From Eledone cirrhosa (Eukaryota), in assembly GCA_964016885.1 (NCBI GenBank), contig OZ024740.1, positions 248,682,001 to 248,746,000 on the forward strand: a stretch of DNA of 64,000 bases, in the 5' to 3' direction. The stretch's first letter is position 1. The number at the start of each line of letters is the position of its first letter. Below, piece by piece: positions 15,436-53,935 of this stretch. The position numbers were made by a program, and so were the translations under genes. Below the pieces are notes generated by a model. The model did no database searches, was not told the DNA's origin, and saw only the letters and a program-made list of their open reading frames with translations.

Positions 15436-18400
15436 CTGTGAGCGCCTGAAGACATTCCAGTCTCCAAGCGCTCCCTCTCGGTCTTCGCTTGACCCAGGAC
15501 TGCAGCTCCGTCAAGGAGACGAGCTGGGGAAAAACGTGTCTAGCAAACGGCGACCACACCTGATCACCGTCGAGGAAGAGGTGGAGATGTCGTAGCCTGA
15601 GCGCGTTTCTGCGCATCATCAGACACGGCATGCCCAGCCCTCCACGTAGCGGGTGTTGACAGCAGATGGACGCCTGACCATCGGAGCGCGTCCCTTCCAC
15701 AAAAAGCGAAAGAGCAAACGCTCCAGCGCAGTCAGGCGGGGCTTAGGACAAGGTACGACGGTCAGGCGGTAGTAGATGACGGACGCGATGTACGCGTTGG
15801 CCACGTCTGCTCGACCTTTCAGGGATAGCTTCCTCTCCGCTCATTTCTGGGTGAGAGAAGCCACCCTGCTCGTCACCTTGTCCCAGTTTTTGTCCGTCTG
15901 GAAGTCCGGACCGAAACAGACCCCTAGCAATTTAACCGGTCCGTCCGTCCAGCGCCCGACGACGCTGTTGGACGGCATGGACCTGCCTCTCCAGGTGCCG
16001 AGCTGCAGGCCCAGACTTTTCCTGGTTGATCATTTCTCCTGTCACCGCTTCGTATTCTCTTAGTGTATTGCCGATCGCCTCGATGTGTTTGGCGTTCGAC
16101 ACCACTACGGTGACATCGTCCGCATATGCTGGCCCGGATCTTCCGCATCCTAGTTCGCGCGGGACTCCCCTCAACGTCTCCAGTTTGTGCAGTAATGGCT
16201 CAAGAGTCAATACGTACAAAAGGGACGAGAGGGGACATCTTGGAAAACCCTCTCGTCCCTATACGATGTATCGCATGAGGTGGAGGTTGTCGTGGATGGA
16301 TCTGTCGGGAATGGCACATGTCTGCGCTTCTCCCACCAGACCACCAACGACAAGCGCCAACCTCTTTGCTAGCACCTTGGCCAAAATCTTGAACTTTGTG
16401 TTTGAACTCTGAGTTATGGGCCTAAAATTATCTGTTATCCCCCTTGTTCGGATCCTTTCTCAGCAGTGCCACCGCTCCTCGGCTCACAGAGCTGGGAATT
16501 CTCCCGTTCTGTTGCCAGTTGCAGTAGACGTCCGCCAAGAGGCCTCCGAACAAGTCTGGCATCTGTACGTAAAGTTCATAGGGCAGACCATCCAAACCAG
16601 GCGATTTACCCCTTGTGCAGCCAGTCATTGCCTCCCGTACTTCAGCGGTTGTTATCGGCTTTTCGCAACACTCCGCCTCAGTGGCCGAGAGCCGCGGCAG
16701 TCCGTCGAGGTAGACACTAAAGTCCATCCCTCGATCCGGCCCGCCGCTGCCCCAGAACAGCTGAGCGAAGTGTCGCTGAAAAGCTTCACACATTTGCCAG
16801 GGATCGAGTAGCATGCGCCCGTTGTGGTCCACCAAAGACCGGATCGTGGCTATATTGCCACGACGCGCCTCCGCCACTCGGGCCTATTGAACGGCTTTCG
16901 TCCCCTCGTGTCTGAGAGCACGCACCCTAGCTCTGACAACGCAGCCTTCGTGCTTTGCATTGAAGAATTGGTCAAGGGCCAATTTCGTCGGTCGCGATGT
17001 CTTTGCCAAGCGCCTCGTCTAATTTTCTAACTAGTTCTCCGTCTGCTCTATTTTTCTCTATTGCTAAAGCCTTACTAAACCTAATGGACTCTATTCTAAT
17101 TGCTCCTTTCAGAGCAAACCACCACTTGTTGTTGACGATGGCCCCCGTCAACGCCCGCTTAACTAGTTCGCTAATCCGGTCTCTGTAGGCCTTGCGCGCT
17201 GGTAAGGACGCGTTTAGCTTCCAGTAGCCGGGTCCTCGTCTATGAAGCCTATCTAAGTCAAGCACACAGATCACGAATTTGTGGTCCGTGTAGCTGACTA
17301 TCTTGAATTGTGGACAGCCTATGCTAGACCTATCTATTTCCCTACAAAATACTCTATCTAGATATGATCTGGATGACCCTATGTGATTTGTCCAAGTCCA
17401 TATTGGCACATTCGGGAAATCCAATCGGTACCTGTCAGACAGTTCAAAACGCCTGAGCAGGTTGGTGAGGCTCTTGCACCCTCCTCCCCTATCCGCTAAT
17501 CCCACACAGTCCCAGCGTGCATCTAAGATCCCGTTCCAGTCGCCCACTAACACTAAAGAGCGGGACGTTCCAAGAAATGTCTCCAGACGCCGGAAGAAAT
17601 CACACCGCCCTGCTCCTGTCGGGGCATAGACGGCCACTAGCCTGAAAGCTTGCCCGTCTCCGCTGGTCACGTCCAGCACCACCAACTTACCTTCTGGGTC
17701 CAGGAAGATGGCCCGTATGGCAAGATCCAAACCTCTCCGAAAAAGCACACGTAGCCGCCGAAGATCGGTGCGAAGGCCTGTGCTTCGGAGATTCTGGTCT
17801 CGCTGATGGCCACTACATCTATGTTTAGTGACCTGAGGTCGTTGAGCAGGTGGCCCTGCTTCCATGACGACCCCAAGCCACGCGCATTTATGCTGCCTAT
17901 TCTGAGTGAGGTCATGTTGAAATGGAGTGGGAAAGATGGGAAAGACCACTTACCGTACTTTTCGTAGAGGAAGGATGGTTTCTCTATCCCTTTTCACTTG
18001 ATCGTCTGGTGAAGGGACCGTTGAATCGTCCCTTCGGCTGGTCGTCGGCTCTTCTATGAGTATGTCCGAATATATTCTCCGGTTGAGAGTCCCTCCTAGG
18101 TCTCTGAAATCACCAACTGCGTTGGGGAATTTCGTTTTAATGTTTGTGTATTGTTTCTGTGCTATTTTTACCAGTCTTATGTTCGTTGGCGTTTTGATTG
18201 GTGCTGGTATTATGTAGTCGTGCTGTGAAATGTCTGTGTGTTCAATTATGTAAGTCATTAGTTTCTTGTTGTATGTATTTATTGCCGTGCATTTGTTTTT
18301 CTGGAGGTGGGGTGTGGTTCTGCTATTTTCTTGTCGTTGTTGCTGGGTGTGTGTGTTTTGTTGTTGTGTTTGCGATGTTGGTGCTTGTGGTGGTGGTGTT

Positions 18401-19483
18401 GAAGGTGTTTTTGTTGTTGGGGATGTTTGCAGTAGAGTCTCTGTTGCAGCTGCAGTTGGTATTACTGTTGTTGTTGTTAATACTTCCACTGCTGCTGCTG
18501 TTCTTGATTTCCGTGGCGTGGGTATGGGTGCCATGGACCTATCCTTCCTGGTTGCCGCCTGTCCTGTTGCTGGTAGCAGTGGAGCCGGTTCCGGAAGGAG
18601 GGGGGTTTTCTCCTTTCTCAGGGTCTTCTCGTTGCAGATGGCCCTGAGGTGAGTCTTCGATCCACAGCGAAAGCATTTCGGGCGTTTGCCCTCAACACTT
18701 ATGGGCTGTTGAGTGCCGTTATCGAAGTCTATCACATCCGGGATAGCTTCGATGCACTCCTTTGTTGGTTTGGATTAACATCTCAATGGAGGTGCCGGCC
18801 CAATCTTCTCTTACTCTTTTCTGTACTTGCAGTACAGTTGTTTTGTCCTCGATTCCGACGAGGACAGACGCGGCCAGCCAAGAAGGGACCATCCCGGGGG
18901 GGACGTGGGTCAGTTTGACCCTCACAATTTTTTGCCCGCAGTAGGAGGGCACCAACACCATTTCCTCGCTCCTTAGGGTCACTAAGGATTGAGCCTTTGC
19001 CTCCTGGGGTGTGGCAAAAAGCACGTCTACGGTGGCATATTTCTTGCCTCGGGTGATATGCGTTTTCCGCTGCCACACCGACCCTAAGGCTTTTTGTATT
19101 TGAGCCTCTGTGGCACTTACAACCCTACGGGATTTTGTGCTTACTGTACGGTACGTGACCGTACAGTGCTGTTGGGTTTCGAAAAGTTTTTCGGTTGCCT
19201 TGCAGATTGCTCGGTGTCCGGTCTTTGTCACCATCTTCTTCGCTTCCTGTAATTCCTCATTTGTTATAAGGATGATGTCCAGGTTCTTTGCGATACCTGC
19301 AAACGAGATTGGTTTTTCTTTTCTGCTGTTGTTGTTGTTGTTGTCGTCAGAGCTGCTGTTACTTTTGTTGTTGCTGGAGGTACTACGACTACTGCCGCCG
19401 TCGCTGTTGCTGTGGTTGTTGTTGTTGTTGCTGCTGCTGCTGCTGTTGTTGTTGCTGTTGCTGCTAATGCTGTTGTTGTTTAT
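15436..19483 (-). mobile_element. L1/Tx1 family L1-b, truncated at both ends with internal deletions
   Basis: Closely matches 42959-48970; ORF1 CFRCGSKTHLRAIC, APE (INARGL, VGDWN, TDH) and RT pieces; 5' end abuts (AAT)n. Confidence 0.92.
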
Positions 19484-19484
19484 A

Positions 19485-19548
<64 letters not shown>
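19484..19548 (+). repeat. (AAT)n tract, first of the array junction tracts
   Basis: Similar tracts at 23251-23289, 27976-28049, 30320-30366, 32969-33042, 38044-38060, 42908-42958, 48971-48997 and 53737-53758. Confidence 0.97.
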
Positions 19549-19550
<2 letters not shown>

Positions 19551-22500
19551 CTAAGTCAGACATTCGAACACTACATTACAATGAAACTTATGCTTATTCA
19601 TTTTTGGGGCCCTTTCTGCCTGTGTGTTTGTTTGTTTATGTGTGTTCGTATACAGCGTGGTGATAATACCACACAAGGGCCAAGTGGAATGGCGGATCCA
19701 TAGATGGATATGTAACCATACATTCGCCAATCCTCGATAAGAGTGTTTAAATATCGAACATAAACAGTTCGAATAACGGTGAAATGGAGACTAGAACGAC
19801 ATGTGACACACTCTCACCCAACAGGTGCCCCCTGGCTCAGCAGCAGGAACCTGACTGTCAACCAAATACTGCTGATGTTGGAGGAAGGAGAAGAAGGAAA
19901 GGGGCCAGAACCAACTGGACGAAAGAATTGAATAGAACTGTTATGCAATGTTACCTGAAAAGTAACCCCAAGGAGAGGGGCTACAGGAGACGGATGCATA
20001 ACATCTGGAACGAGATTGGTTTATTTAAATTAGATGAACAAAGATTGGCCGGGCAGGCTCGGGTAATAAGAACTAATGGATGAATAAGCGAGCTGGAACT
20101 GGAGGAACTGAGCAGAGAGAATGGCTTGGAGATGGCGGGTGTAGTATGCCAGACAAGCGAGCCAGTGGGAAATGAAGGTGAAGAGGTCCTGAGAGCGGAG
20201 GAACCACCCGAAGCAGACAATGATCTGAATACTGAGATAAATAATACCTGGAACAGAGATACGGCCACTGAGGAGATGAATGCTGACGGGCTAGGACAAG
20301 ATTCGGTTGACATCCTAAATTTAGTGGTAGATGAATTGAACAATGATAGTGGGAGACCTATGAACCTAAGATTTGTAGACAGGAAAAAGTTAAAAGAAAC
20401 AACAGCTAAGGTAAACAAAGTCATCCCATACCTTGAGGCGAGGAGCCTTCACCAGTGCAACAATATCCTCAAAGCAACAGCAAATACGGTGAGGAAACTA
20501 CTTGGTATAAAAGCGAGAGGAAACAACAGACAAGAAAGAGCAGAGCCGTGGTGGAAGAAGCGACTGAGTGGGCAAATCGGGGAAATGAGAAATGACATAG
20601 GAAAGCTTGAGTCACTACTGAATGGGACACTAAAAAACATAGGCACTAAAAATAGACTGGAAATAAAATACAAAACTAGGAGGAAAAAGCTAAATATTAT
20701 CATAGAGGAACTGAAGCAACGCATTGTAGCAAAGAGTGCAAAAATCAGGCGATACGAGAACAGAGTCAGTCAGTATAAACAGAACCGCATGTTCGACAAC
20801 AACCAGAAGATGCTGTTTGGACAGCTTGAGGGGAAAGAAAGAGGCAACGACTTGATCCCTGGGGCGGAGCAAACTAAAACATCCTGGAGAGGAATATGGG
20901 AGCAGGATGTTAGACACAATGCCCAGGCAGGGTGGATTGAGACAGTACAGAGGGAGATCGGTGAGCAGGCACAACAACAAACTGATTTGAGTATCACAGT
21001 TGAAACTCTTAAGGGGCAGGCCAAAAAACTAACCAACTGGAAATCACCAGGCCCAGATGGTGTGCAGGGGTATTGGATTAAACATTTAACATCCCTCCAC
21101 CCGAAGCTGACGGCCATGTTCAATGACTGCTTGGTGTCGGGTGAGGTGCCAGAGTGGTTGACAAAAGGTACCACAGTTCTGATAATGAAAGACCGAATCA
21201 AGGGTAATGATGTTACCAACTATAGACCTATCACATGTCTGCCCGTAATGTGGAAACTGTTGACGAGCATTGTGTCTGAGGAAATCTACCATCACCTCCA
21301 CACAAACAACTTGTTACCGGACGAACAGAAAGGATGCCGAAAGAAGTCACGTGGTACAAAGGACCAGTTACTTATTGATAAGATGGTAATGGGGAATTGC
21401 AGGAGGAGACACACTGATCTTGCCATGGGATGGATAGACTACAGAAAGGCATTTGACATGGTGCCTCATTCCTGGATCACCAAAAGCCTGGAGATCTTCA
21501 GGGTGGCAGATAACATCAGACAGTTGCTAGGCAGGAGTATGGGGTCCTGGGAGACAGAGTTGACATCAACTGGAGTATCCTTGAGAAGCGTGAAGATCAA
21601 GAGAGGTATCTTCCAGGGAGATAGCCTGTCCCCTCTGTTGTTTGTCCTTGCCCTGATGCCCTTGACCATTATGCTGCGAAAAGTGAGAGCAGGATACAAG
21701 TTGGGAAGGGGAGAGCTTACCATCAATCACCTCCTCTTCATGGACGATCTTAAGCTCTTCGGGAAAAGTGAGAAGGAGTTGGATGTGCTTGTTGACACTG
21801 TCCGTATTTTCAGCAGTGATATATGTATGCAGTTTGGTATTGGTAAATGTGGAGTCATTGTGATGAGGAGGGGTAGGTTGAGCAGAAGTAACGGGATCCA
21901 GATACCAACAGGTGAGATGATAAAGGAAATTGACTCTGAGGAAGGATACAAGTATTTGGGCGTTCTGGAGGCTGATGGCATAAAGAACAAAAAAATGAAG
22001 GAATTGTTAAGAACTGAATACATTCGGAGAGTAAGGAGCGTATTGAAGTCACATCTGAACAGCAGAAATGCCATAAGCGCAGTAAATTCCCGAGCTGTGT
22101 CTATTATTAGGTACAGTGCGGGAATTCTGAGATGGAATGTTGCTGAACAAAAAGAAATGGATAGGAAGACTAGGAAGCTATTGACTATCTACAACATGTT
22201 CCACAAGAGGAGTGATGTCGATAGACTCTACCTAAGGAGATCTGAGGGTGGAAGAGGTCTTATCAGCATAGAGGACTGTGTTCAGATGGAGAAAAACAAC
22301 CTATACAAATACGTGACCTATAGTAAGGAGCCAATGCTCAGAACAGTACTGAAGGAGGGGACAGTAGGCCAGGGGATGTCCAAGGAGGAAATAACATCAA
22401 GGAGGAAGAGCAGCCTTAAGGGAAAATCCCTTCATAGTACCTTCTTTGAGAAAACTGAATTTAGAGATCCACAGACATGGAACTGGTTGAGAAGAGGAGA

Positions 22501-23250
22501 CCTCAAAAAGGCTACAGAAGGAATGCTAATGGCTGCGCAGGAGCAGGCCCTCAAAACGAAGTGGTTGAAGCACCATATCTACAAGGAGGAGGCTAGCCCA
22601 CTGTGCAGGATCTGTGGAGAGAGAGAGGAGACTGTGGCTCACATTGTGTCCGAGTGTAAACACCTAGCCCAGACCCACTATAAGGGCTGGAGACACGATG
22701 TGATGGGCAGGGTGATCCACTGGCACCTGTGCAAAGTAAACAATTTACCACATTCTGAGAAATGGTATGAGCATAGGCCAGAGGCGGTGATGGAGAACAA
22801 TCAGGTGAAGGTGCTGTGGGATTTTAGGATACAGACGGACAAAAAACTGGAACACAATAGACCTGACCTGGTGGTTGTGGACAAAGAAAAAAGATCGTGT
22901 CTGATTGTGGATGTGGCCTGCCCGTTCGACACGAGAGTGCAAGAGAAGGAGAGGGAGAAAATTAACCGATACCAGGACCTAAAGTGGGAGGTGAAAAGGA
23001 TTTGGAACTGCCATGAAGTCAAAGTGATACCGATTGTCATAGGCGCACTGGGGACTATCTCCAAAAGTTTCCAGGGATGGTTAAAGAAAATCGGCCCCTT
23101 CACGCTTTTTGGAACGCTTCAAAAGGCATGCTTGCTTGGAACAGCAAGAACCCTCCGATACGTCCTGAATATCTGAGGCTGCAGGTAGTGGCTTGATATT
23201 CAATCCAACGGACTTTCCAGTTAACCAACATCAATGACTGAGATTCAAGG
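19549..23250 (+). mobile_element. R4/Dong-clade non-LTR retrotransposon, family A copy 1 (leader truncated)
   Basis: Single RT-RLE ORF, short 3' UTR, flanked by (AAT)n on both sides. Confidence 0.92.
19784..23176 (+). pseudogene. R4-A1 ORF (Myb-like N-terminus, RT, CCHC, restriction-like endonuclease) with one in-frame stop
   Basis: NWTKELN..CY, KSPGPDG, YRPITCL, DYRKAFD, GIFQGDSLSP, FMDDLKL, CRICGEREETVAHIVSEC, RHD, RPDL..D..K; TGA at 20081-20083 where A2 and A4 have TGG. Confidence 0.92.
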
Positions 23251-23291: not shown

Positions 23292-26200
23292 GGGAGAAGA
23301 CGCACGTGGTGGATAGAAGGTCGTGAAATCGCTCCCGTAAGTTTTGAATTTTTAGCATATTTAAATCATTTGTGAAATAACAACTCTTAGTACAAATGCT
23401 ACGTAAAGCACCCGGCTTGAGCCCCAAAAAAATTCGGACCCAAAATATATTGTTATAAGGCTCAAATATTCAAATATTCAACTTTATATTGTACATTGTA
23501 TATTCAAAAAAGAAAATGGCTATAAATGGAAGAAGAAGAACCCCCCCTCCTCTGTCTACACTATATAGAACAGCCAAACAACACCAATCTCACCAACACC
23601 AGAAACTAGATACACCAACTACCCCATCACCTCTCTGTGTACACTAAACACAACAACCAGATAACGGCAACTTCACTACCACCACAACCAATCTCAATGA
23701 TAATAATAAATACTATTATTATTGTCCCAAGTTTTAACAAAATGTTTAATTCCAACATTAAGGGAATTTATGTCAACACATGTACGCGACTAACCCCATA
23801 GATTCACCGAACGGACATCAGTAACGACAACGCCATCACTACAGTCACCGCCGCCGCCGCCCATCCATCATTACTACCACTATCCCGCCACCACTCCTTC
23901 ATTGCTACCACCGCTACAACACCTTCACTACAGTAATACGATCACATCACCACCACCACTGCCTCAGTATCGACATCACCACCACCACTGCCTCAGTATC
24001 GCTACCGCCGCTATTCTCTCCCATTGCTTCCTGCTAGTTGCTGCTAGCACAGCACTGCCACCACATTATAGAATTCCTACTAAAAAAGAGGAAGGCATCA
24101 AAATATATAGATAGACTCAAAAGAAAAAACAAAAATCAAAACCAAAGCAGCACAGCAACAACAACAACAAAAAAAAAACAGAGAAAAACAAAAACAAAAA
24201 AACGTAAAGAAAATAAGAATGAAGAGAGAAACAAGCGGACGGACAGAGAAGAGAAGGGGAAAACTAAGTCAGACATTCGAATACTACATTACAATGAAAC
24301 TTATGCTTATTCATTTTTGGGTTTTTTTCTGCCTGTTTGTTTGTTTGTTTATTTGTGTTCGTCTACAGCGTGGTGATAATGCCACACAAGAGCCAAGTGG
24401 AGCGACGCAACCACCGGAGACGGTGAATCCACAGATGGTTATGTAACCATACATTCGCCAATCCTCGATAAGAGTGTTTAAATATCGAACCTAAACAGTT
24501 CGAATAACGGTGAAATGGAGACTAGAACGTCATGTGACAGACTCTCACCCAACAGGTGCTCCCTGGCTCAGCAGCAGGGACCTGGCTGTCAACCAAATAC
24601 TGCTGGTGTCGGAGGAAGAAGAAGGAAAGGGACCAAAACCAACTGGACGAAAGAATTGAATAGAACTGTTATGCAATGTTACCTGAAAAGTAACCCCAAG
24701 GAGAGGGGCTATAGGAGACGGATGCATAACATCTGGAACGAGATTGGTCTATTTAAATTAGATGAACAAAAATTGGCCGGGCAGGCTCGGGTAATAAGAA
24801 CTAATGGGTGGATAAGCGAGCTGGAACTGGAGGAACTGAGCAGAGATATTAGCTTGGAGATGGAGGGTGGAGTATGCCAGGCAAACGAGCCAGTGGGAAA
24901 TGAAGGTGAAGAGGTCGAGAGAACGGAGGAACCACCCGAAGCAGACAATGATCTGAATACTGAGATAAATAATACCTGGAACAGAGATACGGCCACTGAG
25001 GAGATGAATGCTGACGGGCTAGGACAAGATTCGGTTGACATCCTAAATTTAGTGGTAGATGAATTGAACAATGATAGTGGAAGACCTATGAACCTAAGAT
25101 TTGTAGACAGGAAAAAGTTAAAAGAAACAACAGCTAAGGTAAACAAAGTCATCCCATACCTTGAGGCGAGGAGCCTTCACCAGTGCAACAATATCCTCAA
25201 AGCAACGGCAAATACGGTGAGGAAACTACTTGGTATAAAAGCGAGAGGAAACAACAGACAGGAAAGAGCAGAGCCTTGGTGGAAGACACGACTGAGTGGG
25301 CAAATCAGGGAAATGAGAAATGACATTGGAAAGCTTGAGTCACTACTGAATGGGACACTAAAAAACATAGACACTAAAATTAGACTGGAAATAAAATACA
25401 AAACTAGGAGGAAAAAGCTAAATATTATCATAGAGGAACTGAAGCAACGCATTGTAGCAAAGAGTGCAAAAATCAGGCGATACGAGAACAGAGTCAGTCA
25501 GTATAAACAGAACCGCATGTTCGACAACAACCAGAAGATGCTGTTTGGACAGCTTGAGGGGAAAGAAAGAGGCAACGACTTAAAACCTGAGGCGGAACAA
25601 ACTAAAACATTCTGGAGAGGAATATGGGAGCAGGATGTTAGACATAATGACCAGGCAGTGTGGATTGAGACAGTACAGAGGGAGATCGGTGAGCAGGCAC
25701 ACCAACAAACTGATTTGAGTATCACAGTTGAAACTCTTAAGGGGCAGGCCAAAAAACTAACCAACTGGAAATCACCAGGCCCAGATGGTGTGCAGGGGTA
25801 TTGGATTAAAAATATAACATCCCTCCACCCGAAACTGACAACCATGTTCAATGACTGCTTGATGTCAGGTGAGGTACCAGAGTGGTTGACAAAAGGTACC
25901 ACAGTTCTGATAATGAAAGACCGAATCAAGGGTAATGATGTTACCAACTATAGACCTATCACATGTCTGTCCGTAATGTGGAAACTGTTGACGAGCATTG
26001 TGTCTGAGGAAATCTACCATCACCTCCACACAAACAACTTGTTACCGGACGAACAGAAAGGATGCCGAAAGAAGTCACGTGGTACAAAGGACCAGTTACT
26101 TATTGATAAGATGGTAATGGGGAATTGCAGGAGGAGACACACTGATCTTGCCATGGGATGGATAGACTACAGAAAGGCATTTGACATGGTGCCTCATTCT

Positions 26201-27974: not shown

Positions 27975-27975
<1 letters not shown>
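23292..27975 (+). mobile_element. R4/Dong family A copy 2, full length with ~1.2-kb leader; ORF 24515-27901 frameshifted twice
   Basis: Leader starts GGGAGAAGACGCAC immediately after (AAT)n; frameshifts near 26505 and 27350. Confidence 0.92.

Positions 27976-28049: not shown

Positions 28050-28050
<1 letters not shown>

Positions 28051-30318: not shown

Positions 30319-30320
<2 letters not shown>
28050..30320 (+). mobile_element. R4/Dong family B copy 1, 5'-truncated
   Basis: Starts at NPKNYRP; YMDE instead of YMDD; CRVCKKQPDTIDHIISMC, RHD, RPDI; stop at 30175; (AAT)n tail. Confidence 0.92.

Positions 30321-32967: not shown

Positions 32968-32968
<1 letters not shown>
30369..32968 (+). mobile_element. 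R4/Dong family A copy 3, internally deleted (no RT), both ends intact
   Basis: Leader and ORF start (ATG 31867) joined at GGAAGA (~31966) to the post-RT region; RLE and 3' UTR retained. Confidence 0.9.
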
Positions 32969-33043
<75 letters not shown>

Positions 33044-34005: not shown

Positions 34006-34252
34006 AATAATTTCATTCTTAAGCCACGCAATGCTCACATTAAGGAACCACTCATGATAATAACAATTTAAAAAAAAACAACAAAAATAAAACCCCGTGA
34101 CCAAGAAATACCGGGATGGCGGCCGGCGGGGAATAGCCATGTCTCTAGGGGAGAACGACCCCTCTAGTCTTGGTTGACACTCGTTCTAGAAGTGGTAACA
34201 CGAAAAGATTACCCCTTGGCGGATAAGGATAAAACGCGACAAAATAAAGTAG

Positions 34253-37903: not shown

Positions 37904-38060
37904 GTACATCACAAGTCTAAACACTAAGGATGCATGTGTGAATATGTGTGTTCTTTCTTGAACATGGCGGACCTTGTTGTCTCTTGAGGTCACTGGTTGT
38001 GACTTGGTGATAACTCGTATAAACATAAAGCAAGATAAATGCAAATAATAATAATAATAA

Positions 38061-42919: not shown

Positions 42920-42958
<39 letters not shown>

Positions 42959-42960
<2 letters not shown>

Positions 42961-45900: not shown

Positions 45901-48900
45901 ACTAGCCGGGTCCTCGTCTATGAAGACTATCTAAGTCAAGCACACAGATCACGAATTTGTGGTCCGTGTAGCTGACTATCTTGAATTGTGGACAGCCTAT
46001 GCTAGACCTATCTATTTCCCTACAAAATACTCTATTTAGATATGATCTGGATGACCCTATACGATTTGTCCAAGTCCACATTGGCGCATTCGGGAAATCC
46101 AATCGGTACCTGTCAGACAGTTCAAAGCGCCTGAGCAGGTTGGTGAGGCTCTTGCACCCTCCACCCCTATCCGCTAATCCCACACAGTCCCAGCGTGCAT
46201 CTAAGATCCCGTTCCAGTCGCCCACTAACACTAAAGAGCGGGACGTTCCAAGAAAGGTCTCCAGACGCCGGAAGAAATCAGGCCGCCCTGCTCCTCTCGG
46301 GGCATAGACGGCCACTAGCCTGAAAGCTTGCCCGTCTCCGCTGGTCACGTCCAGCACCACCAGCTTACCCTCTGGGTCCAGGAAGATGGCCCGTATGGCA
46401 AGATCCAAACCTCTCCGAAAAAGCACAGCAACTCCTCCCCCCGATCCAGGACGGCTGGGAGATGCGTACACATCGTAGCCGCCGAAGATCGGTGCGAAGG
46501 CGCGTGCTTCGGAGATTCTGGTCTCGCTGATGGCCACTACATCTATGTTTAGTGACCTGAGGTCGTTGAGCAGGTGACCCTGCTTCCATGACGACCCCAA
46601 GCCACGTGCATTTATGCTGCCTATTCTGAGTGAGGTCATGTTTAAAATAGAGTGGAAAAGATGGGAAAGACCACTTACCGTACTTTTGGTAGAGGAGGGA
46701 TGGTTTTTACATCCCTTTTCACTTGATCGTCCCTTCGGCTGGTCGTCGGCTCTTCTAAGAGAATGTCTGAATATACTCTTCGATTGATAGTTCCTCCTAG
46801 GTCCCTGAAATCAACAACTGCGTTGGGGAATTTCGTTTTAATGTTTGTGTATTGTTTCTGTGCTATTTTTACCAGTCTTATGTTAGTTGGCGTTTTGATT
46901 GGTGCTGGTATTATGTAGTCGTGTTGTGAAATGTCTGTGTGTTCAATTATGTAAGTCATTAGTTTCTTGTTGTGTGTATTTATTGCCGTGCATTTGTTTT
47001 TCTGGGGGTGGGGTGTGGTTCTGCTATTTTCTTGTCGTTGTTGCTGGGTGTGTGTGTTTTGTTGTTGTGTTTGCGATGTTGGTGCTTGTGGTGGTGGTGT
47101 TGAAGGTGTTGTTGGCGGTGGGGTTGTCGCCGGTGGTGATGGTGGTGCTAGTGTGGGTGGTGATGGTGTTGGTGGTGTTGCTGCTGTGGGTCTCTTTGCA
47201 GTAGATTTTACCCTTTTCTCATATCTTTCCTCCCTTTTCAAAGGCGACGATGCGCTGCTTCTGCGTTTGTGCCTTCTTACGACCTTTTGCCATCTCTCTC
47301 CCACCTCACACTCCATGTCTGATTCTGTGAGGTCGGGGAGGGGTACCAGCTCCACTCTTTCACTTGTTGTTGTTGGTGATGTTTGCACTGGAGTCTCTGT
47401 TGCAGCTGCATTTGGTATTGCTGTTGTTGTTGTTAATATTTCCACTGCTGCTGCTGTTTTTAATTTCCGTGGCGTGGGTATGGGTGCCACGGACCTATCG
47501 TTCCTGGTTGCCGCTTGTCCTGTTGCTGGTAGCAGTGGAGCCGGTTTCGGAAGGAGGGGGGGGGGTTCTCCTTTCTCAGGGTCTTCTCGTTGCAGAAGGC
47601 CCTGAGGTGAGTCTTCGATCCACAGCGAAAGCATTTCGGGCGTTTTCCTTCAACACTTATGGGCAGTTGAGTGCCGTTATCGAAGTCTATCACATCCGGG
47701 ATAGCTTCGATGCACTCCTGGTTGGTTTGGATTAGCATCTCAATGGAGGTACCGACCCAATCTTCTCTTACTTTTTTCTGTACTTGCAGTACAGTTGTTT
47801 TGTCCTCGATTCCGACGAGGACAGACGCGGCCAGCCAAGAAGGGGCCATCCCGGGGGGGACGTGGGTCAGTTTGACCCTCACAATTTTTTGCCCGCAGTA
47901 GGAGGGCACCAACACCATTTCCTCGCTCCTTAGGGTCACTACGGATTGGGCCTTTGCCTCCTGGGGTGTGGCAAAAAGTACGTCTACGGTGGCATATTTT
48001 TTTCCTCGGGTGATGTGCGTTTTCCGCTGCCACACAGACCCCAAGGCTTTTTGTATTTGAGCCTCTGTGGCTCTTTCCACCCTACGGGATTTTGTACTTA
48101 CTGTACGGTACGTGACCGTACAGTGCTGTTGGGTTTCTAAAAAATTTTCCGCTGCCTTGCAGATTGCTCGGTGTCCAGTCTTTGTCACCATCTTCTTCGC
48201 TTCCTCTAATTCCTCATTTGTTATGAGGATTGTTTCCAAGTTTTTCGCAATACCTGCAAATGAGATTGGTTTTTCTTTGCTGCTGTTGTTGTTGTTGTCG
48301 TCAGAGCTGCTGTTACTTTTGTTGTTGCTGCAGGTACTACGACTACTGCCTCCGCCGCTGTTGCTGTGGTTGTTGTTGGTGTTGCTGCTGCTAATGCTGT
48401 TGTTGTTTATGCTGCTGGTGATGCTGTTGCGGCTGCTACTGTTGTTTTCATTGTCACTGTTGCTGTTGTTATTACGGCTGCTACTGCTATTATTCCTGAC
48501 GTCAGACGAATGAACTGAGTTTTCGTATTTCCCGCACACCTGTTTCGTCGCTGTCGTCGTCGTCGTGGAGAAACCTTGCACGCTTTGCACGAGACTTTTC
48601 TTTTCTTTCGTCGCTTGCGAAAGAGAAGGGAGGGAGAGAGACACATTTAAAGAAGGGAGGGAGAGAGACAATCTTCTCTCTGCTGTAGTGACGATTGAGG
48701 AAAAAGAAGACGGAATGAGTGGGAGTGACCTATGCAAATTCTTTTTCGTAGCCATGTTGTTTTTTTGTTAAAAATAAATATTGGGTACAAAACCCCAATA
48801 AGCAGTTATTTAACCCCGAAGGGCCAAATAACGGGCAGAAAGACCCCTCTCACGAGGAGGAGGGTGTTTTTGTCTACAAGTTGGTCTAAGTTTTAAACAA

Positions 48901-48970
48901 TTTACAATTGTTAAAGCGTTCAAAATTTACAGTACCTTACAGAGCCGAGCCTCCGTCAACCATAGCATTC
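42959..48970 (-). mobile_element. L1/Tx1 family L1-b, apparently full length, inserted in (ATT)n
   Basis: 5' UTR, ORF1 48755-46675 (CCHC, one frameshift), ORF2 46639-43220 (APE, RT, CCHC; premature stop near 45902), 3' end AATAAAGAAATC; (AAT)n on both sides. Confidence 0.93.
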
Positions 48971-48997
48971 AATAATAATAATAATAATAATAATAAT

Positions 48998-49195
48998 AGA
49001 AACTGGAACACAATAGACCTGACCTGGTGGTTGTGGACAAAGAAAAAAGATCGTGTCTGATTGCGGATGTGGCCTGCCCATTCGACACGAGAGTGCAAGA
49101 GAAGGAGAGGGAGAAAATTAACCGATACCAGAACTTAAAGTGGGAGGTAAAAAGGATTTGGAACTGCCATGAAGTCAAAATGATCCCGATTGTCA
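48998..49195 (+). mobile_element. R4/Dong family A RLE fragment (copy 5)
   Basis: KLEHNRPDLVVVDKEK...KMIPIV, fused directly to the middle of a leader. Confidence 0.88.
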
Positions 49196-52100
49196 GCAAT
49201 TTCACCAACACCAGAAACTAGATACACCACCTACCCCATCACCCCTCTGTGTACACTAAATACAACAGCCAGATAACGGCAATTTCCCCACCACCACCAC
49301 CACCAATCCCAGTATAATAATAATAATTACTATTATTATTGTCTCAAGTTTTAACAAAATGTTTAATTCCAATATTAAAGAAATATGTCAACACATATAT
49401 TAAACATACGCGACAAATGCATAGATACACAGATCAAACAAAACTACAGTCTATTCAACAAAACTCAGTAACGACAACGCCATCACTATAGTCACCGCCG
49501 CCACCACTCCATCCATCATTGCTACCACTATCCCATCACCGCCGCCACCACTCCTTCATTGCTACCACCACTATTCCCCCATTACCTTCTGTTAACTTAA
49601 GAAAGGGGAAGGTGGCGGTATCACTAGACAAGGGAGAGGCTAGCAAAGATATAAATAGATTGACTTAGTGACCCGGCCACCGGCCAAACGTCAACGACTA
49701 TGACACTGCTGGCTACCCCCTTCCCCACCAACAATAGAAAAATCCCCAGCACCACCACCGACATAGCCAACAACAATAACAGGCAACTTCAGCAAAAAGT
49801 ATATTATATTATTAATAATTTCATTCTTAAGCCACGCAATGCTCACATTAAGGAACCACTCATGAGAATAACAATTTAAAAAACAACAAAAAAGAAAACC
49901 CCGTGACCAAGAAATACCGAGATGGCGGCCGGCGGGGAATAGCCGTGTCTCTAGGGGAGGGTGACCCCTCTAGTCTTGGTTGACACTCGTCCTAGAAGTG
50001 GTAACACGAAATGATTACCCCTTGGCGGATAAGGATAAAACGCGACAAAATAAAGTAAATGTCTAATGATAAAATCTCATACCGGATCGGCCATCACCCG
50101 GGTCAAAAAGGGCCGCGTTCCTCAGAGAGGAACCAGACTGCGGTCGAAAAATCAGCTAATGGTTCAAACCTTCCCATCACTTCGGAGCTGGAGACCTCCC
50201 ATAACCGGAATACTCCTACTGTTGGCTCTCCATGCTCACCACCAAGAAATCCAAAGAAAAAGAGAGAAAAATGGTCAAGGGAAGATAATAAAGAAGTCCT
50301 TGAGGCTTTCTACACTGCCATGTACTACCCATCAAATACATCGAATACAGAACAGACATATATCAACTGGAAAAAGAAACATCCCGAAAACAGAGGCTAT
50401 ATTGACAGTAACAAACTAGCCAATACACGAAGAAATATTGTAAAAAAAAAGTTACTAACTGATATAGAAATTGATCAGATCAAGCTATTAGCACAAAGTC
50501 AGCGAAGGGAAAATGAAACATGTGTCAGTGAAAACGAGGTAAATTGTAACACTTCGAATCCCAGGGTTGGGGCGGAATCACTGACAACAGAACAAATTAA
50601 AGAAAGGATCGAAAAAGTGGAGGGAGTGCATGCTCAAGATGAAACTCCAAATGAAAACAATGAGATCGTAAATGATAAAGAAATGAATGAGAATGAACTT
50701 GCCAACTTGAAGGATGAAATTATGATCAAATGGATGAAAATGAAAGAATCTGACATGGGGGAACGAGACACCCTCCCTAAGATCCAGAACTCCAAACAGA
50801 ACCAAAAGATAATACACAAGACTAACATAATTCTCAAAAACATTATCAACACAAACAAACTAAACATTACTGATTTAAATCATCTCTATTATGCATCGGC
50901 TAAAGTCACCACTCACTTATGTGGAGTGAAGATGAAAAAACAAAGGAATTCACACAAGAAATCTACTTGGCAAGAGAACATCAATCGCCAAATAAACCTT
51001 TTCCGATCTGACATAGAATGTTAACAAACTATAAAGTAGGTGAACATGTTAAACAAACTAAACTAAAATTGAAAAGAAAGTACAGTATAAAATCAACAAG
51101 TGACATAGACATGCTGATAGAAATAATCAAGCAAAAAGTGTCGGCCAAAGCTGCTCGTATAAGGCGCTTTGAAAAACGATCTAGATTCTATAAGGACAAT
51201 AATATGTTCAAAAACAACCAAAGAAACTTCTACAGAAAAATTGGTAAGTCAACAATAACTGCTAAATCAATACCAACCAAGGAGGGAGTGCAAGAATTCT
51301 GGGATAAGATCTGGGCCGAAGAAAAAGTTCATAATATACATGCCCCATGGATAGACAGACAAATGAAAGATACAGCTCACCTTGAGGAACAAATATGGGA
51401 AAATATAACAGTTGAACAGTTGCGTTTGGCTCTAAGAAAAAACAGCAAATGGAAATCCCCAGGAAAAGACAAAATACAAAATTTTTGGATAAATGCCTTC
51501 ACAGAGTCTCATGAGCTGTTAGCCCAACTTTACAATGAAATAGTTAAGGAGCCAGAAAAGATACCATCATGGCTAGTTAACGGCATTACATTCCTGCTTC
51601 CGAAGAATGATGAGACAAACAATCCCAAAAATTACAGACCGATAACTTGCTTGACCACAATGTATAAAATTTTAACATCAGTCCTAACTGAATATACATA
51701 TGACCACCTGATAACAAATGACCTATTTCCCATTGAGCAGAAAGTGTGTAAACGAGGCTCATGTGGCTGTAAGGATCAGCTTTTGGTTAACAAAATGATA
51801 CTGGAAGATTGTCATAATAGACACAAAATTCTATCAATTGCTTGGATAGATTATAAAAAAGCATTCGATAGTTTGCCACACAGTTGGATTGAAAAATGTT
51901 TAGAGATTTTCAAAATATCTCCCGTTGTCAGGAGGTTTTTGTCATTCAGTATGAAGACATGGAAAACGACACTCCTTTTGAATAGTAAAACAAAATCACT
52001 GGAAGCTGGAGAAGTTAATATTAATTGTGGAATTTTTCAGGGTGACTCTTTATCACCGCTTTTATTCTGCATCGCACTTATACCATTAAGTAAAATGCTC

Positions 52101-53737
52101 AATGAAACAAAACATGAATATAAAGTCTATGACAAAACCATTAATCACTTGTTCTACATGGATGACCTGAAACTATTTGCAAAAAATTATGAACAATTGC
52201 AAGGGCTATTATCCACTGTGGAGCAGTTCAGTGATGACATTAAAATGGAGTTTGGACTAGATAAATGCGCCAAAGCAACGTTCACCAGAGGAAAGCTGCT
52301 GAAAAGTTCAGACATTAATCTTGATCGGGGGAATGTGATAAGAGAACTTGATCAAGAGGAAACTTACAAATATCTAGGTGTTTGTGAAGGAGACGGAATC
52401 AAGCACTCGACAATGAGGGAAAGGATAAGTAAGGAATATTACCGCAGAGTAAGAGCAATCTTAAGAACGGAATTGAATGCAAGGAATAGGATCGATGCCA
52501 TAAACACGCTTGCCATACCAGTAGTAACCTACAGTTACAATGTCATCAACTGGTCAAGCACAGAGATCCGTAGGCTCGATACAAAAATTCAAAAATTCTT
52601 AACCATGCACAGAATGCATCACCCTAAGGCAGATACAGATAGAATATATCTCCCTAGGAAAGAAGGAGGACGTGGGTTAATCCAGTTAGACATTGCGTTA
52701 AAAACTGCAACAATTGGATTATCTACATATCTAAGGGAATCACATGATTGGATGATCAAACTCGTTTTGAATAAAGAAAGCATCAAAAGATCATACTCCA
52801 TTACAAAAGATGCACAAAGATACAGTAACGGACTACAAAATTTAAGAAGTCCCATTTACTGCTGAAATGAAAAACACAGAAAAAGCAAGTAAAAGTCACT
52901 GCAAAGAAAGAACTGCTACAGAAACTGGCTAAGAAATGGCAAGAAAAGGCTCTGTATGGAAAATACCCAGAAACAGCTAACAATCCTGATGTTGACAAAA
53001 CTTTAACCCATCAGTGGTTGGCATCCTCTGGACTGAAATCTGAGACTGAAGGACTGATTATATCAGCACAAGATCAGTGTCTGCCAACAAAAAATTATCA
53101 AGCCAACATAATAAAAAATGAGCTGCACAATACATACATTGGATAATGTGTAAGAATTTTGACCTGCCCCATCAAAAGAATTGGTGGGCGCATCAACCAC
53201 CTCCCATACTTGAAAAAGATCACATCTCAATCTTGTGGAACTTTAGCATCCAAACAGACCGAAAAATAGATGCAAATAGACCTGATATAATACTGAAGGA
53301 CTTTAAAAAGAGGGTATGCCTGCTAATTGATATGTCCGTTCCAATAGACAAGAATGTATCTATAAAAACATTTGAAAAATTGAGCAAGTATAAGGACCTG
53401 GAGATAGAAATTGGAAAAATGTGGAAATTGAGAACTAAAACAATACCAGTGGTTGTAGGCGCTCTAGGAATGATACCTAAGGGGTCTAATGATTACTTAT
53501 CGCAAATCCCAGGAAACCCGCGTATAGGAGAAATACAAAGATAGTACTAATGGGAACTGCCCATATACTAAGGAAGATTCTGTCAATATAAGTACATCAC
53601 AAGTCTAAACACCTAAAGATGCATGTGTGTGTATGTATGTTCTTTCTTGAACATGGCGGAACTTGTTGTCTCTTGAGGTCACTGGTTGTGACTTGGTGAT
53701 AACTCGTATGAACATAAAGCAAGATAAATGCAGCTGT
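49196..53737 (+). mobile_element. R4/Dong family B copy 3; ORF 50059-53591 frameshifted with the zinc knuckle deleted
   Basis: Matches B2; frameshifts near 51020 and 52840; deletion near 53120 removes CCHC and RHD; (AAT)n then (TA)n tail. Confidence 0.92.
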
Positions 53738-53935
53738 AATAATAATAATAATAATAATTATATATATATATATATATATATATACCCCAGCCAGCTTACA
53801 ATCACCAATGCCAGCAACAATACTGTCTCCCACCCATAATATAACCGCTACAAGAGGAATCTAGCCATATGGGTACTGGGCGGCGAGGTTAACGACACGT
53901 CGGACTTGCAGCATATCAATGGAAAATTACATCTC

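What the first reader, a model, noticed from the sequence alone, without database searches (positions are those of the whole stretch)
15436..53784. ~38-kb retrotransposon array seeded on (AAT)n: two R4/Dong families head-to-tail plus antisense Tx1
Seen: nearly every junction is an (AAT)n tract. Eight R4 copies or fragments (order A,A,B,A,B,A,A-fragment,B) are all on +, and two L1-b copies are on minus and abut (AAT)n. Known: Dong/R4-clade elements target TAA repeats. Inference: each insertion leaves (AAT)n that serves as the next target, so three families, using two unrelated endonuclease types (RLE and APE), share one self-renewing niche. The R4 copies are sense to the LRRC42-like gene, so if the array is intronic they could be expressed from host pre-mRNA.
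Basis: partly seen in the sequence, partly recalled or inferred. Interest (0 to 1): 0.75.

Follow-up and report, generated by a model that had tools for sequence, protein, structure and literature searches.

The report
Retrotransposon array seeded on AAT repeats
A 38-kb stack of ten jumping-gene copies from three families sits on AAT repeats; across the genome two families always read the AAT strand and the third the opposite ATT strand, so each copy's repeat tail likely becomes the next landing site, which is a clear and very abundant but largely expected case of site-specific retrotransposons.

Summary
8 of 9 internal junctions are (AAT)n.

The core inference is supported genome-wide.
- 30/30 A and 30/30 B copies end in (AAT)n/(TAA)n, and 30/30 L1-b copies end in (ATT)n.
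- 13/13 A and 7/7 B visible 5' junctions, and 27/27 canonical L1-b 5' ends, abut the same repeat.
- 358 of 359 annotated tract sides obey one rule: RLE elements are sense to AAT, and APE elements and a SINE are antisense.

Window copies resemble dispersed copies (up to 99.7-100%) at least as closely as they resemble each other. Young copies lie between older ones. This fits serial insertion, not local duplication.

Not settled:
- RT phylogeny for the R4/Dong and Tx1 labels;
- long-read support for the assembly;
- whether the array is intronic (one LRR-like exon lies upstream);
- expression. No known ribozyme was detected in the 5' UTR that A and B share.

(TAA)n targeting by Dong is known. An (ATT)n-specific APE LINE that splits the two strands of the repeat with Dong-like elements appears not to be described in the papers searched. 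The scan noted a similar pile-up in another genome (e1-9959201).

The parts
15434..19481 (-). L1b_1: an APE LINE copy. It is 5'-truncated at about reference position 540 and lacks its 3' 933 bp and tail. Its 5' end abuts (AAT)n.
   Evidence: aligns to 43892-48429 at 92-96%; junctions; 95.8% median identity to 28 dispersed copies.
19482..19548 (+). (ATA/AAT)22 tract between the L1b_1 5' end and A1.
19549..23250 (+). A1: an RLE family A copy that lacks the first ~970 nt (the 5' UTR). Its open frame is 1030 aa, against 1141 aa in intact copies. Its tail is (AAT)13 at 23251-23289.
   Evidence: (99.3% median identity to 30 dispersed copies).
23292..27975 (+). A2: a full-length family A copy that begins with the shared 5' end GGGAG/GGGAAG... 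Its ORF is split into 678 + 325 aa. Its tail is (AAT)24 at 27976-28049.
   Evidence: (96.0%).
28050..30319 (+). Btrunc: an RLE family B copy, 5'-truncated at about reference position 2765, with a 32-bp duplication at its start. Its tail is (TAA)15 at 30320-30366.
   Evidence: (97.8%).
30369..32968 (+). A4: a family A copy with a complete 5' end and an internal deletion (reference 1330 joined to 3681). Its tail is (AAT)24 at 32969-33042.
   Evidence: (94.9%).
33043..38045 (+). Bfull: a family B copy that lacks only ~50 nt of the 5' UTR. Its open frame is 1216 aa (34253-37903), the length seen in many dispersed copies. It carries a nested SINE at 33779-33943. Its tail is (TAA)5 at 38046-38060.
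   Evidence: (99.7% median identity, 100% to L062 over 2 kb).
38061..42907 (+). A3: a full-length family A copy with a 324-bp tandem duplication in its 5' UTR (38224-38873). Its ORF is split into 341 + 814 aa. Its tail AATAAC AATAAC (AAT)n lies at 42908-42958.
   Evidence: (98.9%).
42959..48970 (-). L1b_2: a full-length 6.0-kb APE LINE flanked by (AAT)n on both sides. ORF1 ends in a CCHC knuckle. ORF2 is read as 302 + 893 aa across one stop, against 1204 aa in intact copies.
   Evidence: (98.5%).
48971..48998 (+). (AAT)9 tract between the L1b_2 5' end and the A5 fragment.
48999..49195 (+). A5: a 197-bp family A fragment (RLE region, reference 4278-4475). It is joined without a repeat tract to the internal 5' UTR of B3.
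49194..53736 (+). B3: a family B copy with a partial 5' UTR. Its ORF is split into 321 + 617 aa. Its tail is (TAA)7 at 53737-53758, followed by (TA)13 to 53784 and then unique flank.
   Evidence: (95.9%).
12061..12149 (+). Exon-like 89-nt segment (ttacag|...|gtgagt) that encodes an LRR-like peptide, 3.3 kb upstream of the array. It is the only support found for a + strand host gene.
   Evidence: (LRR_8 and LRR_1 at E 0.16-0.17, below the cut-off).

Best explanation
The 38-kb stretch is a stack of ten copies of three young non-LTR retrotransposon families that were most likely inserted one after another into a single (AAT)n microsatellite, each copy bringing a new repeat tail that later copies used as target.

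Shown:
- Families A and B (RT plus C-terminal CCHC/restriction-like endonuclease, 39% identical to each other) always end in (AAT)n/(TAA)n and have (AAT)n directly upstream of full-length or truncated 5' ends.
- Family L1-b (APE + RT) always ends in (ATT)n and has (ATT)n upstream of its 5' end.
- As a result, RLE elements lie sense and APE elements, with a SINE that shares their tail, lie antisense to the AAT-reading strand.
- The families are abundant. A, B and L1-b together cover about 4.5% of a random 600-kb sample, mostly in arrays.

Inferred:
- The RLE proteins nick the TTA strand and prime reverse transcription on a (UAA)n RNA tail.
- The APE protein nicks the AAT strand at AATAAT and primes on an (AUU)n tail.
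- Each insertion splits one tract into two, so the number of targets grows with the number of copies.

Order of events, inferred from identity to dispersed copies: an old core (A4, L1b_1, B3, A2 at 95-96%) was later interrupted by Btrunc, L1b_2, A3, A1 and Bfull (97.8-99.7%).
For: 3' ends:
- 30/30 A copies end ...GATTCAAGG + AATAAC-type (AAT)n.
- 30/30 B copies end ...AAATGCAA(A/CTG) + (TAA)n.
- 30/30 L1-b copies end ...AATAAAGAAA(T/A)C + (ATT)n, as do 20/20 more.

5' junctions:
- A truncated copies: 13/13 have (AAT)n upstream.
- A full-length copies: 9/9 recognised starts of 12 fetched.
- B: 7/7 real junctions of 9 visible, the other 2 being internal rearrangements, plus 8/8 further starts.
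- L1-b canonical 5' ends: 12/12 and 15/15.

Neighbours after a tail are mostly guild members.
- After A: 7 antisense L1-b-like, 3 antisense SINE, 5 truncated A, 7 truncated B, 3 full-length starts, 5 other (30 in all).
- After L1-b: 11 antisense A, 3 SINE, 4 L1-b, 2 of a second APE LINE, 10 other (30 in all).

Orientation rule: 358 of 359 annotated sides of 242 tracts obey it.

Not local duplication: A1 is 99.3% (median) identical to 30 dispersed copies and 99.1% to A3. Bfull is 99.7% (median) identical to dispersed copies, 100% to one on the same chromosome 176 Mb away, and 96-98% to its window siblings. Every copy has its own truncation or rearrangement. Each young copy lies between older neighbours.

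Random 600-kb sample: 12-13 of 17 (AAT)n tracts, including all those of 24 bp or more except one composite minisatellite, touch element ends.

SINE copies have 10-18-bp target duplications that start with ATTAT, which fits APE nicking at AATAAT.

Literature: Dong targets (TAA)n in most insects, molluscs and cnidarians (PMC7998251, passages). Tx1-clade LINEs target other microsatellites (PMC4494074, passages).
Against: - The dispersed copies were picked as the best protein matches, so they represent the youngest subfamilies, not a random census. In the random sample only 5 A, 1 B and 4 L1-b 3' ends were seen.
- 5 of 20 L1-b copies did not reach the canonical 5' end. One of them (L190) is preceded by (TTTCG)n rather than (ATT)n, and one (L204) by a SINE end with no visible tract.
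- 10 of 30 L1-b and 8 of 30 B 3' flanks look unique.
- SINE copies mostly sit at ATTAT sites in unique DNA, not in long tracts. The APE machinery may therefore need only a short motif.
- Two array boundaries (15434 and about 49194) are not repeat tracts, so deletions have also shaped the array.
- The nicked strands and the priming step are inferred, not measured.
- The assembly of this repeat-rich stretch could not be checked.
Confidence: 0.85

Rival explanations
1. The array grew mainly by local tandem or segmental duplication, or by unequal crossing-over between (AAT)n tracts or element bodies, not by independent insertions.
For: Copies of one family recur in one orientation. A2 and A3 align over 4.2 kb including the 5' UTR. 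Two junctions (15434 and about 49194) and the internal deletion in A4 show that recombination or deletion has acted here.
Against: Window copies are not each other's closest relatives: A1, A3, Bfull and L1b_2 are 98.5-99.7% identical to copies on other chromosomes, while A2-A3 is 93-96% and B3-Bfull 96%. Identity drops at the junctions. For example, B bodies at 97.6% continue into 5' UTRs at 81%. No two copies share a truncation point.
Confidence: 0.05
2. The array, or its order, is an assembly artefact of highly similar repeats.
For: The families have near-identical copies genome-wide (150 of 150 scored hits at 99-100% for each family). Public contigs laid on 30300-50000 were only ~90-140-nt pieces and bridge nothing.
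Against: Neighbouring copies differ by 1-5% and carry private features: a 32-bp duplication, a 324-bp duplication, a nested SINE and an internal deletion. Arrays of the same architecture occur at other loci, including L129 and L152 in the random sample and L1-b tandems 6 kb apart at L046/L047.
Confidence: 0.05
3. L1-b is not target-specific. It inserts like an ordinary L1 at short AT-rich sites, and its long (ATT)n tail merely offers a landing site to the Dong-like elements, so the niche is shared in one direction only.
For: The SINE with the same tail type inserts at ATTAT sites in unique DNA with ordinary 10-18-bp target duplications. 10 of 30 L1-b 3' flanks look unique.
Against: 27 of 27 canonical L1-b 5' ends are directly preceded by 6 or more ATT units, including copies whose upstream neighbour is unique DNA. 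Solitary copies L197, L203 and L205 show no unique-sequence target duplication. The truncated copy L050 is also preceded by (ATT)8. L1b_2 in the window has the tract on both sides.
Confidence: 0.07

Closest known systems
Dong (Bombyx mori) and Dong-like elements of the R4 clade
   Same: Single ORF with RT followed by a CCHC and PD-(D/E)xK restriction-like endonuclease, and no APE domain. Insertion into (TAA)n with a (TAA)n tail. PMC7998251 (passages) gives (TAA)n as the usual Dong target in insects, molluscs and cnidarians.
   Different: Dong has a proven 5' HDV-like ribozyme that cleaves at the (TAA)n/element junction (PMC3774820, passages). No ribozyme family matched the 5' ends of A or B. 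Two families only 39% identical in protein share a 5' UTR that is 76-90% identical.
Microsatellite-specific Tx1-clade LINEs (Kibi, Koshi and crocodilian Tx1 families)
   Same: An APE-bearing LINE of the L1 group that is specific for a microsatellite and has a SINE partner sharing its tail. PMC4494074 (passages) lists (TC)n, (TTC)n and (TTCC)n/(TTTC)n as targets.
   Different: The target here is (ATT)n, which those passages do not list. Membership of the Tx1 branch was not tested. 15 of 20 copies sampled without regard to ORF state are full length.
R1/R2 in 28S rDNA and TRAS/SART in telomeric repeats (both recalled, not from a call)
   Same: Several site-specific LINE lineages share one repeated target. 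R1 is APE type and R2 is RLE type. TRAS and SART occupy opposite strands of the telomeric repeat.
   Different: Here the target is a microsatellite that the elements regenerate with their own tails, so the target supply grows with copy number. The APE and RLE lineages divide the two strands of one repeat between them.
Recently active Dong-R4 and L1-Tx1 families annotated in Octopus vulgaris
   Same: The best named relatives of L1-b ORF2 are Argonauta hians proteins at 69% identity. PMC13282606 Table 1 (passages) counts 1129 recently active Dong-R4 insertions and 421 L1-Tx1 insertions. These are probably the same superfamilies.
   Different: The passages retrieved give no target site, tail or orientation. 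'AAT' has 0 occurrences in that paper, and 'microsatellite' occurs only in a figure legend.
LINEs with non-poly(A) repeat tails: the I element with (TAA)n, RandI with (ATT)n
   Same: The 3' tails are trinucleotide repeats of the same motif (PMC3747384, passages).
   Different: Those passages do not report these elements as specific for the matching microsatellite.

Membership tests
R4/Dong clade (families A and B) | Reverse transcriptase domain | tested here: met
   RVT_1 at E 2e-18 to 2e-29 in all A and B ORFs.
R4/Dong clade (families A and B) | CCHC motif plus PD-(D/E)xK restriction-like endonuclease C-terminal to RT, with no APE domain | tested here: met
   CRICGEREETVAHIVSEC...NRPDLVVVD...VDV...K in A and the equivalent in B. 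The alignment to R2 proteins 9nl3/9dou runs through the CCHC and RLE regions, E 8e-27. No Exo_endo_phos hit in A or B.
R4/Dong clade (families A and B) | Specific insertion into (TAA)n (Dong type) with a (TAA)n tail | tested here: met
   60/60 tails and 37/37 informative 5' junctions.
R4/Dong clade (families A and B) | N-terminal diverged Myb/SANT-like domain without zinc fingers (PMC7998251) | tested here: inconclusive
   A conserved KW(S/T)xE...Y..W...NKLAN(I/V)RR block with an invariant Trp is present in 12 aligned proteins and in A. No Cys/His finger is seen in the B N-terminus. Pfam gives no Myb hit. The AF2 model has pLDDT 87 and four helices. Foldseek gives no match at E<=0.001. VIA-align gives Z<=6.0, with telomere-Myb, SANT, DMAP1 and the R2 N-terminal region among the weak rows.
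R4/Dong clade (families A and B) | RT phylogeny groups with Dong/R4 rather than R2, NeSL, CRE or HERO | not testable with these tools
   No named reference sequences could be obtained.
HDV-like self-cleaving ribozyme at the 5' end (as in Dong and R4) | Nested double-pseudoknot fold with cleavage at the element's first base | tested here: inconclusive
   No Rfam ribozyme match in the window at E<=1 or in two full-length 5' regions at E<=10. RNAalifold on 8 variants gives only a weak stem (positions 1-11 with 32-48, -5 kcal/mol, 1 compensatory pair). By eye, no P2 partner for the 5' strand was found.
Tx1 clade / L1 group (family L1-b) | APE endonuclease N-terminal to RT, and a C-terminal Cys-rich zf-RVT-type motif | tested here: met
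   Exo_endo_phos E 1e-13, RVT_1 E 1e-28, zf-RVT E 4e-7.
Tx1 clade / L1 group (family L1-b) | Target-specific insertion | tested here: met
   50/50 (ATT)n tails. 27/27 canonical 5' ends follow (ATT)n.
Tx1 clade / L1 group (family L1-b) | ORF1 with a CCHC knuckle rather than the mammalian L1 Transposase_22 type (this feature is recalled, not taken from a call) | tested here: met
   ORF1 ends ...CFRCGSKTHLRAFC. No Transposase_22 hit.
Tx1 clade / L1 group (family L1-b) | RT/APE phylogeny groups with Tx1 rather than other L1 lineages | not testable with these tools
   439 homologues were found, none with a clade name. The best named are Argonauta hians hypothetical proteins.
tRNA-derived SINE (partner of L1-b) | tRNA-like head | tested here: inconclusive
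   ARAGORN finds nothing at the default setting and a tRNA-like fold at positions 15-99 only at the relaxed threshold. No Rfam tRNA hit over the window copies.

The most novel reading that the evidence does not exclude
One trinucleotide microsatellite works as a genome-wide, self-amplifying landing pad for a whole guild of retroelements. The guild holds at least two RLE LINE families, at least two APE LINE families and a SINE. Its members split the two strands of the repeat between endonuclease classes, and every insertion creates a further target. In addition, the two RLE families have exchanged a 5' UTR module whose invariant first 15 nt and conserved stem act as a processing or start signal. 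That signal would let copies in head-to-tail arrays or introns be released from read-through transcripts, as the Dong ribozyme does, but with a structure that fits no known ribozyme family.
Probability: 0.25. Interest if true: 0.7.

Novelty: new variant of a known kind. Interest (0 to 1): 0.45.

Why it matters
The finding gives a concrete sequence-level rule for where a large share of young LINE and SINE insertions land in this 3-Gb genome, which is probably that of an octopod. It explains why they pile up in oriented arrays and why long (AAT)n tracts are mostly element tails. The feedback between tails and targets is a simple mechanism for local runaway growth of repeats away from coding sequence.

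The finding also supplies natural pairs for comparing how an APE and an RLE endonuclease read opposite strands of the same repeat. It makes testable whether Dong-like elements in arrays or introns are expressed by co-transcription. For annotation, it warns that the orientation of such elements relative to a host gene is set by the microsatellite strand, not by selection.

Tried and rejected
- A DNA search of the own genome with the A 3' end found nothing, not even the window itself, because very common words are skipped. Short protein queries were used instead. The first-look candidate numbers (46,356, 58,729 and 43,347) are not copy numbers and may overlap between related families.
- Rfam gave no ribozyme or other structured RNA in the array, only low-complexity miRNA-like rows.
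- A by-eye search for an HDV-like fold found only a 4-5-bp P1 candidate (GGGA/UCCC), no P2 partner, and an L3 of unusual length. I dropped it.
- No RNA holder was listed for the B ORF. Contigs laid on 30300-50000 were ~90-140-nt pieces in three runs of one sample and bridge no junction. A fourth run, from another coded organism, holds a 3750-nt contig that is 98.6% identical to B. Depths were not used as copy numbers.
- Homologue names: none for B. Only Argonauta hians 'hypothetical protein' for L1-b. The Atlas gave only RVT_1 clusters.
- Pfam at E<=10 gave no Myb/SANT hit in the A or B N-termini. Foldseek against the PDB gave no match at E<=0.001.
- I first read a 19-nt direct repeat around copy L005 as a target duplication. 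I withdrew this because the same sequence follows the tail of another copy (L023), so it is itself a repeat.
- Scan notes by place and by sequence returned nothing for this genome.
- Downstream exons of the putative host gene were looked for by eye in ORF lists of 53785-56500 and 1-3500. None was seen.

Full report
**What is in the window.** A self-comparison of the window, a tandem-repeat scan, ORF and Pfam scans and direct reading of every junction give the following map of 15434-53784 on the + strand:

- L1b_1 (minus strand, 15434-19481)
- (AAT)22
- A1 (19549-23250)
- (AAT)13
- A2 (23292-27975)
- (AAT)24
- Btrunc (28050-30319)
- (TAA)15
- A4 (30369-32968)
- (AAT)24
- Bfull (33043-38045)
- (TAA)5
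- A3 (38061-42907)
- (AAT)~15
- L1b_2 (minus strand, 42959-48970)
- (AAT)9
- A5 fragment (48999-49195)
- B3 (49194-53736)
- (TAA)7(TA)13
- unique flank

8 of 9 internal junctions are (AAT)n. The ninth, A5|B3, is a deletion junction. The left edge is not a repeat either, because L1b_1 lacks its last 933 bp. Nine tracts in 38 kb compares with 17 in a random 600 kb of the same genome, so about one would be expected.

**What the families are.**
- A and B have one long ORF with RVT_1. It is followed by a C-x2-C-x7-H-x4-C motif and an RPD...D...K motif.
- The B protein matches R2 retrotransposon proteins in the PDB at E 8e-27. The alignment runs through the CCHC and endonuclease regions. A and B have no APE domain.
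- A and B are 39% identical in protein.
- L1-b has Exo_endo_phos, RVT_1 and zf-RVT. Its ORF1 ends in a CCHC knuckle.
- A and B are therefore RLE-type LINEs, and L1-b is an APE-type LINE of the L1 group.
- The names R4/Dong and Tx1 fit these features and the target. I could not obtain named reference sequences for a tree, so clade membership is not tested.
- The best named relatives of L1-b ORF2 are Argonauta hians proteins at 69% identity, so the host is probably an octopod (inference).
- A 2026 repeat annotation of Octopus vulgaris lists Dong-R4 and L1-Tx1 among the most recently active LINEs (PMC13282606, passages including Table 1).

**Full-length structure.** The roughly 0.7-1 kb that follows most tracts is not a separate unit. 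It is the 5' UTR of full-length A and B copies. It starts with (A)GGGAAGAAGACGCAC directly after the tract in the window (23292, 30369, 38061) and in dispersed copies. A1 and Btrunc are 5'-truncated and start directly after a tract. A4 is full length with an internal deletion. Bfull lacks only about 50 nt.

**Genome-wide test of the target.** The window lies at C1:248,682,001-248,746,000 of a 3.0-Gb assembly. Searches with short C-terminal peptides returned 150 scored hits per family, all at 99-100% identity, out of 43,000-59,000 first-look candidates. Those candidate numbers are not copy numbers. The 30 best loci per family gave these results.
- All 30 A copies end in ...GATTCAAGG followed by AATAAC-type (AAT)n.
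- All 30 B copies end in (TAA)n.
- All 30 L1-b copies end in ...AATAAAGAAA(T/A)C followed by (ATT)n on their own strand.
- Where the 5' junction lay inside the locus, 13 of 13 A copies had (AAT)n upstream.
- 7 of 7 real B junctions had (AAT)n upstream. Two further break points were internal rearrangements.
- I then fetched the expected 5' ends of 12 long-ORF copies per family. 9 of 12 A regions and 8 of 12 B regions contained a recognisable start, and every one followed (AAT)n. All 12 L1-b copies started with GAATGC(C/T)ATGG directly after (ATT)n.
- Twenty more L1-b copies were taken without regard to ORF length. 15 had canonical 5' ends, all after six or more ATT units. Five had apparent internal starts: three are probably alignment breaks, one follows (TTTCG)n and one follows a SINE end.

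**The guild and the strand rule.** What follows a tail is usually another element of the same set.
- After A: 7 antisense L1-b or close variants, 3 antisense SINEs, 5 truncated A, 7 truncated B, 3 full-length starts, 5 other.
- After L1-b: 11 antisense A, 3 sense SINEs, 4 sense L1-b, 2 starts of a second APE LINE family, 10 other.
- After B: 8 antisense L1-b-like, 4 full-length starts, 5-6 truncated A, 3 truncated B, 1 truncated 5' UTR, 8 other.
- Over all 242 tracts of five or more units in the window and every fetched locus, 358 of 359 annotated tract sides obey one rule. RLE elements are sense to the AAT-reading strand. APE elements and the SINE are antisense. The one exception is a place where an AAT tract switches directly to ATT.
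- The loci were chosen because they contain the elements, so this tests orientation, not association.
- It follows that 'all R4 copies on +' is a mechanical result of the tract's polarity.

**Serial insertion or duplication.** Over the last 2 kb, the median identity of each window copy to 28-30 dispersed copies is:

| Copy | Median identity to dispersed copies |
|---|---|
| A1 | 99.3% |
| A3 | 98.9% |
| A2 | 96.0% |
| A4 | 94.9% |
| Bfull | 99.7% (100% to one copy 176 Mb away) |
| Btrunc | 97.8% |
| B3 | 95.9% |
| L1b_2 | 98.5% |
| L1b_1 | 95.8% |

Identities among window copies are no higher: A1-A3 is 99.1%, A2-A3 is 95.9% and Bfull-B3 is 96.0%. Identity drops where an alignment crosses from one element into the next. 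No two copies share a truncation point. Each young copy lies between older neighbours. This fits an old core (L1b_1, A2, A4, A5/B3) that was later interrupted by Btrunc, L1b_2, A3, A1 and Bfull (inference). Deletions have acted too, at 15434, in A4 and at about 49194.

**Abundance.** I drew 60 random 10-kb stretches of contigs C1-C4.
- A, B and L1-b together cover 27.2 kb of the 600 kb, or 4.5%. 17.8 kb of that lies in two arrays.
- 3' ends number 5 for A, 1 for B, 4 for L1-b and 40-41 for the SINE. That suggests thousands to tens of thousands of LINE copies per family (only 1 to 5 ends were seen, so these are rough) and about 2x10^5 SINE copies (rough extrapolation).
- Of 17 tracts, 12-13 touch an element end, including all those of 24 bp or more except one composite minisatellite.

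**Mechanism.**
- Shown: the flanks, the tails and the strand rule.
- Inferred from target-primed reverse transcription, as established for R2 and L1: the RLE proteins nick the TTA strand, and its 3' end anneals to a (UAA)n RNA tail. The APE protein nicks the AAT strand, and its end anneals to an (AUU)n tail.
- SINE copies in the random sample carry 10-18-bp target duplications that begin with ATTAT. This places the APE nick after AATAAT on the other strand. It also shows that the APE machinery can use a short site. L1-b itself was nonetheless found in long tracts in 27 of 27 cases.
- Each insertion leaves part of the old tract upstream and a tail merged with the rest downstream, so the number of targets rises with the number of copies.

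**Host gene and expression.**
- An 89-nt exon-like segment lies at 12061-12149 on +. It has ttacag|...|gtgagt boundaries and encodes an LRR-like peptide. The Pfam LRR hits are only E 0.16-0.17. The segment has a donor site, so the array would lie in the following intron.
- I saw no downstream exon in the window.
- No RNA run was listed.
- Dong is known to free itself from co-transcripts with a 5' HDV-like ribozyme (PMC3774820, passages). Here Rfam finds no ribozyme. The 5' ends of eight variants share only a weak stem with one compensatory pair.

**N-terminal domain.** PMC7998251 (passages) reports a diverged Myb/SANT-like domain in R4/Dong elements.
- B and 11 homologues share a conserved block with an invariant Trp, and A has the same block.
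- Pfam finds nothing.
- An AlphaFold model of residues 60-152 is confident (pLDDT 87, four helices).
- Foldseek finds no match.
- VIA-align gives only Z<=6.0, although telomere-Myb, SANT, DMAP1 and the R2 N-terminal region are among the weak rows.
- The test is inconclusive.

**Comparison and novelty.** Known from the literature:
- (TAA)n targeting by Dong-like elements (PMC7998251);
- microsatellite targeting by Tx1-clade LINEs, for other motifs (PMC4494074);
- target-specific RLE clades (PMC4640811);
- trinucleotide tails such as (TAA)n of the I element and (ATT)n of RandI (PMC3747384).

I found no description of the following:
- an (ATT)n-specific APE LINE;
- a split of the two strands of one microsatellite between APE and RLE lineages;
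- such mixed arrays in cephalopods.

These absences rest on my searches and on the passages I read. Kojima and Fujiwara 2004 and Repbase were not available to me, so prior description elsewhere cannot be excluded. I rate the finding as a new variant of a known kind, of moderate interest.

Noticed in passing
window 23292-23990, 30369-31083, 33043-33775, 38061-38873, 49194-49769; loci L091-L113: Families A and B are only 39% identical in protein and have no detectable nucleotide similarity in the ORF. They nevertheless share a 5' UTR that is 76-90% identical over about 300-400 nt, with an invariant first 15 nt, GGGAAGAAGACGCAC. This suggests that a 5' module was exchanged between families that often lie head-to-tail, or that the start of the RNA is under strong constraint.
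   Followed up: partly
window 33779-33943 and 33944-34000; L103, L105: The young B subfamily carries a 56-nt SINE 3' fragment in its 5' UTR that the older copy B3 lacks. The window's Bfull has a second, 165-nt SINE at the same ATTATATTATT site, which is absent from the full-length B copies whose sequence I read (L103, L105), and the BLAST hits of L104, L106 and L113 skip the same stretch. A short ATT patch was therefore hit twice.
   Followed up: partly
window 11858-12060: A SINE sits immediately upstream of the exon-like segment. Its 16-bp target duplication, ATTATTTATGTTACAG, duplicates the polypyrimidine/AG acceptor, so two identical 3' splice sites lie 203 bp apart.
   Followed up: no
loci L127-L186 (random sample): Most of the 40 SINE copies have 10-18-bp target duplications that begin with ATTAT(T), followed by unique sequence, and only a very short ATT tail. 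The SINE end ...CCTTGTGCCTAAAGTAGAAACA resembles the L1-b end ...CCCTTGTGGTTAATAAAGAAATC.
   Followed up: partly
loci L187-L206: 15 of 20 L1-b copies, chosen by a C-terminal match without regard to ORF state, reach the canonical 5' end. That is an unusually high share of full-length copies for an L1-like element. 5 of the 20 are followed head-to-tail by another L1-b.
   Followed up: no
L025, L032, L055, L194, L129; upstream flanks in L091, L096, L098: A repeat that starts with GGCGACCTACGTAG directly after (ATT)n is the 5' end of a second APE LINE family. Its ORF1 resembles L1-b ORF1. Further L1-b-like 3'-end variants occur in L010, L011, L074, L077, L080 and L085.
   Followed up: partly
window 34253-37903 versus coded runs X1-X20: Near-identical 31-mers of the B ORF occur in public runs labelled with about 15 different coded organisms, with shares from 0.76 down to 0.12. 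One of them holds a 3750-nt contig that is 98.6% identical. This may reflect closely related species, shared labels or transfer. I did not resolve it.
   Followed up: no
window 7476-10903 (+), 56493-60322 (+), 61773-64000 (-): Three further L1-like copies, 73-82% identical to L1-b in nucleotides, lie outside the array. The first ends in ...GGCTAATAAAGAAAT, the same terminal motif as L1-b, but with no ATT tract. The other two form an inverted pair with internal (TC)n(TA)n.
   Followed up: no
window 3509-6971: An integrase core (rve, minus strand, 3509-4483) and a weak RVT_1 ORF (plus strand, 5871-6971) probably belong to other retroelement remnants.
   Followed up: no
window 38224-38873 and 28049-28113: There are private tandem duplications inside copies: 324 bp x2 in the A3 5' UTR and 32 bp x2 at the truncated start of Btrunc.
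   Followed up: no
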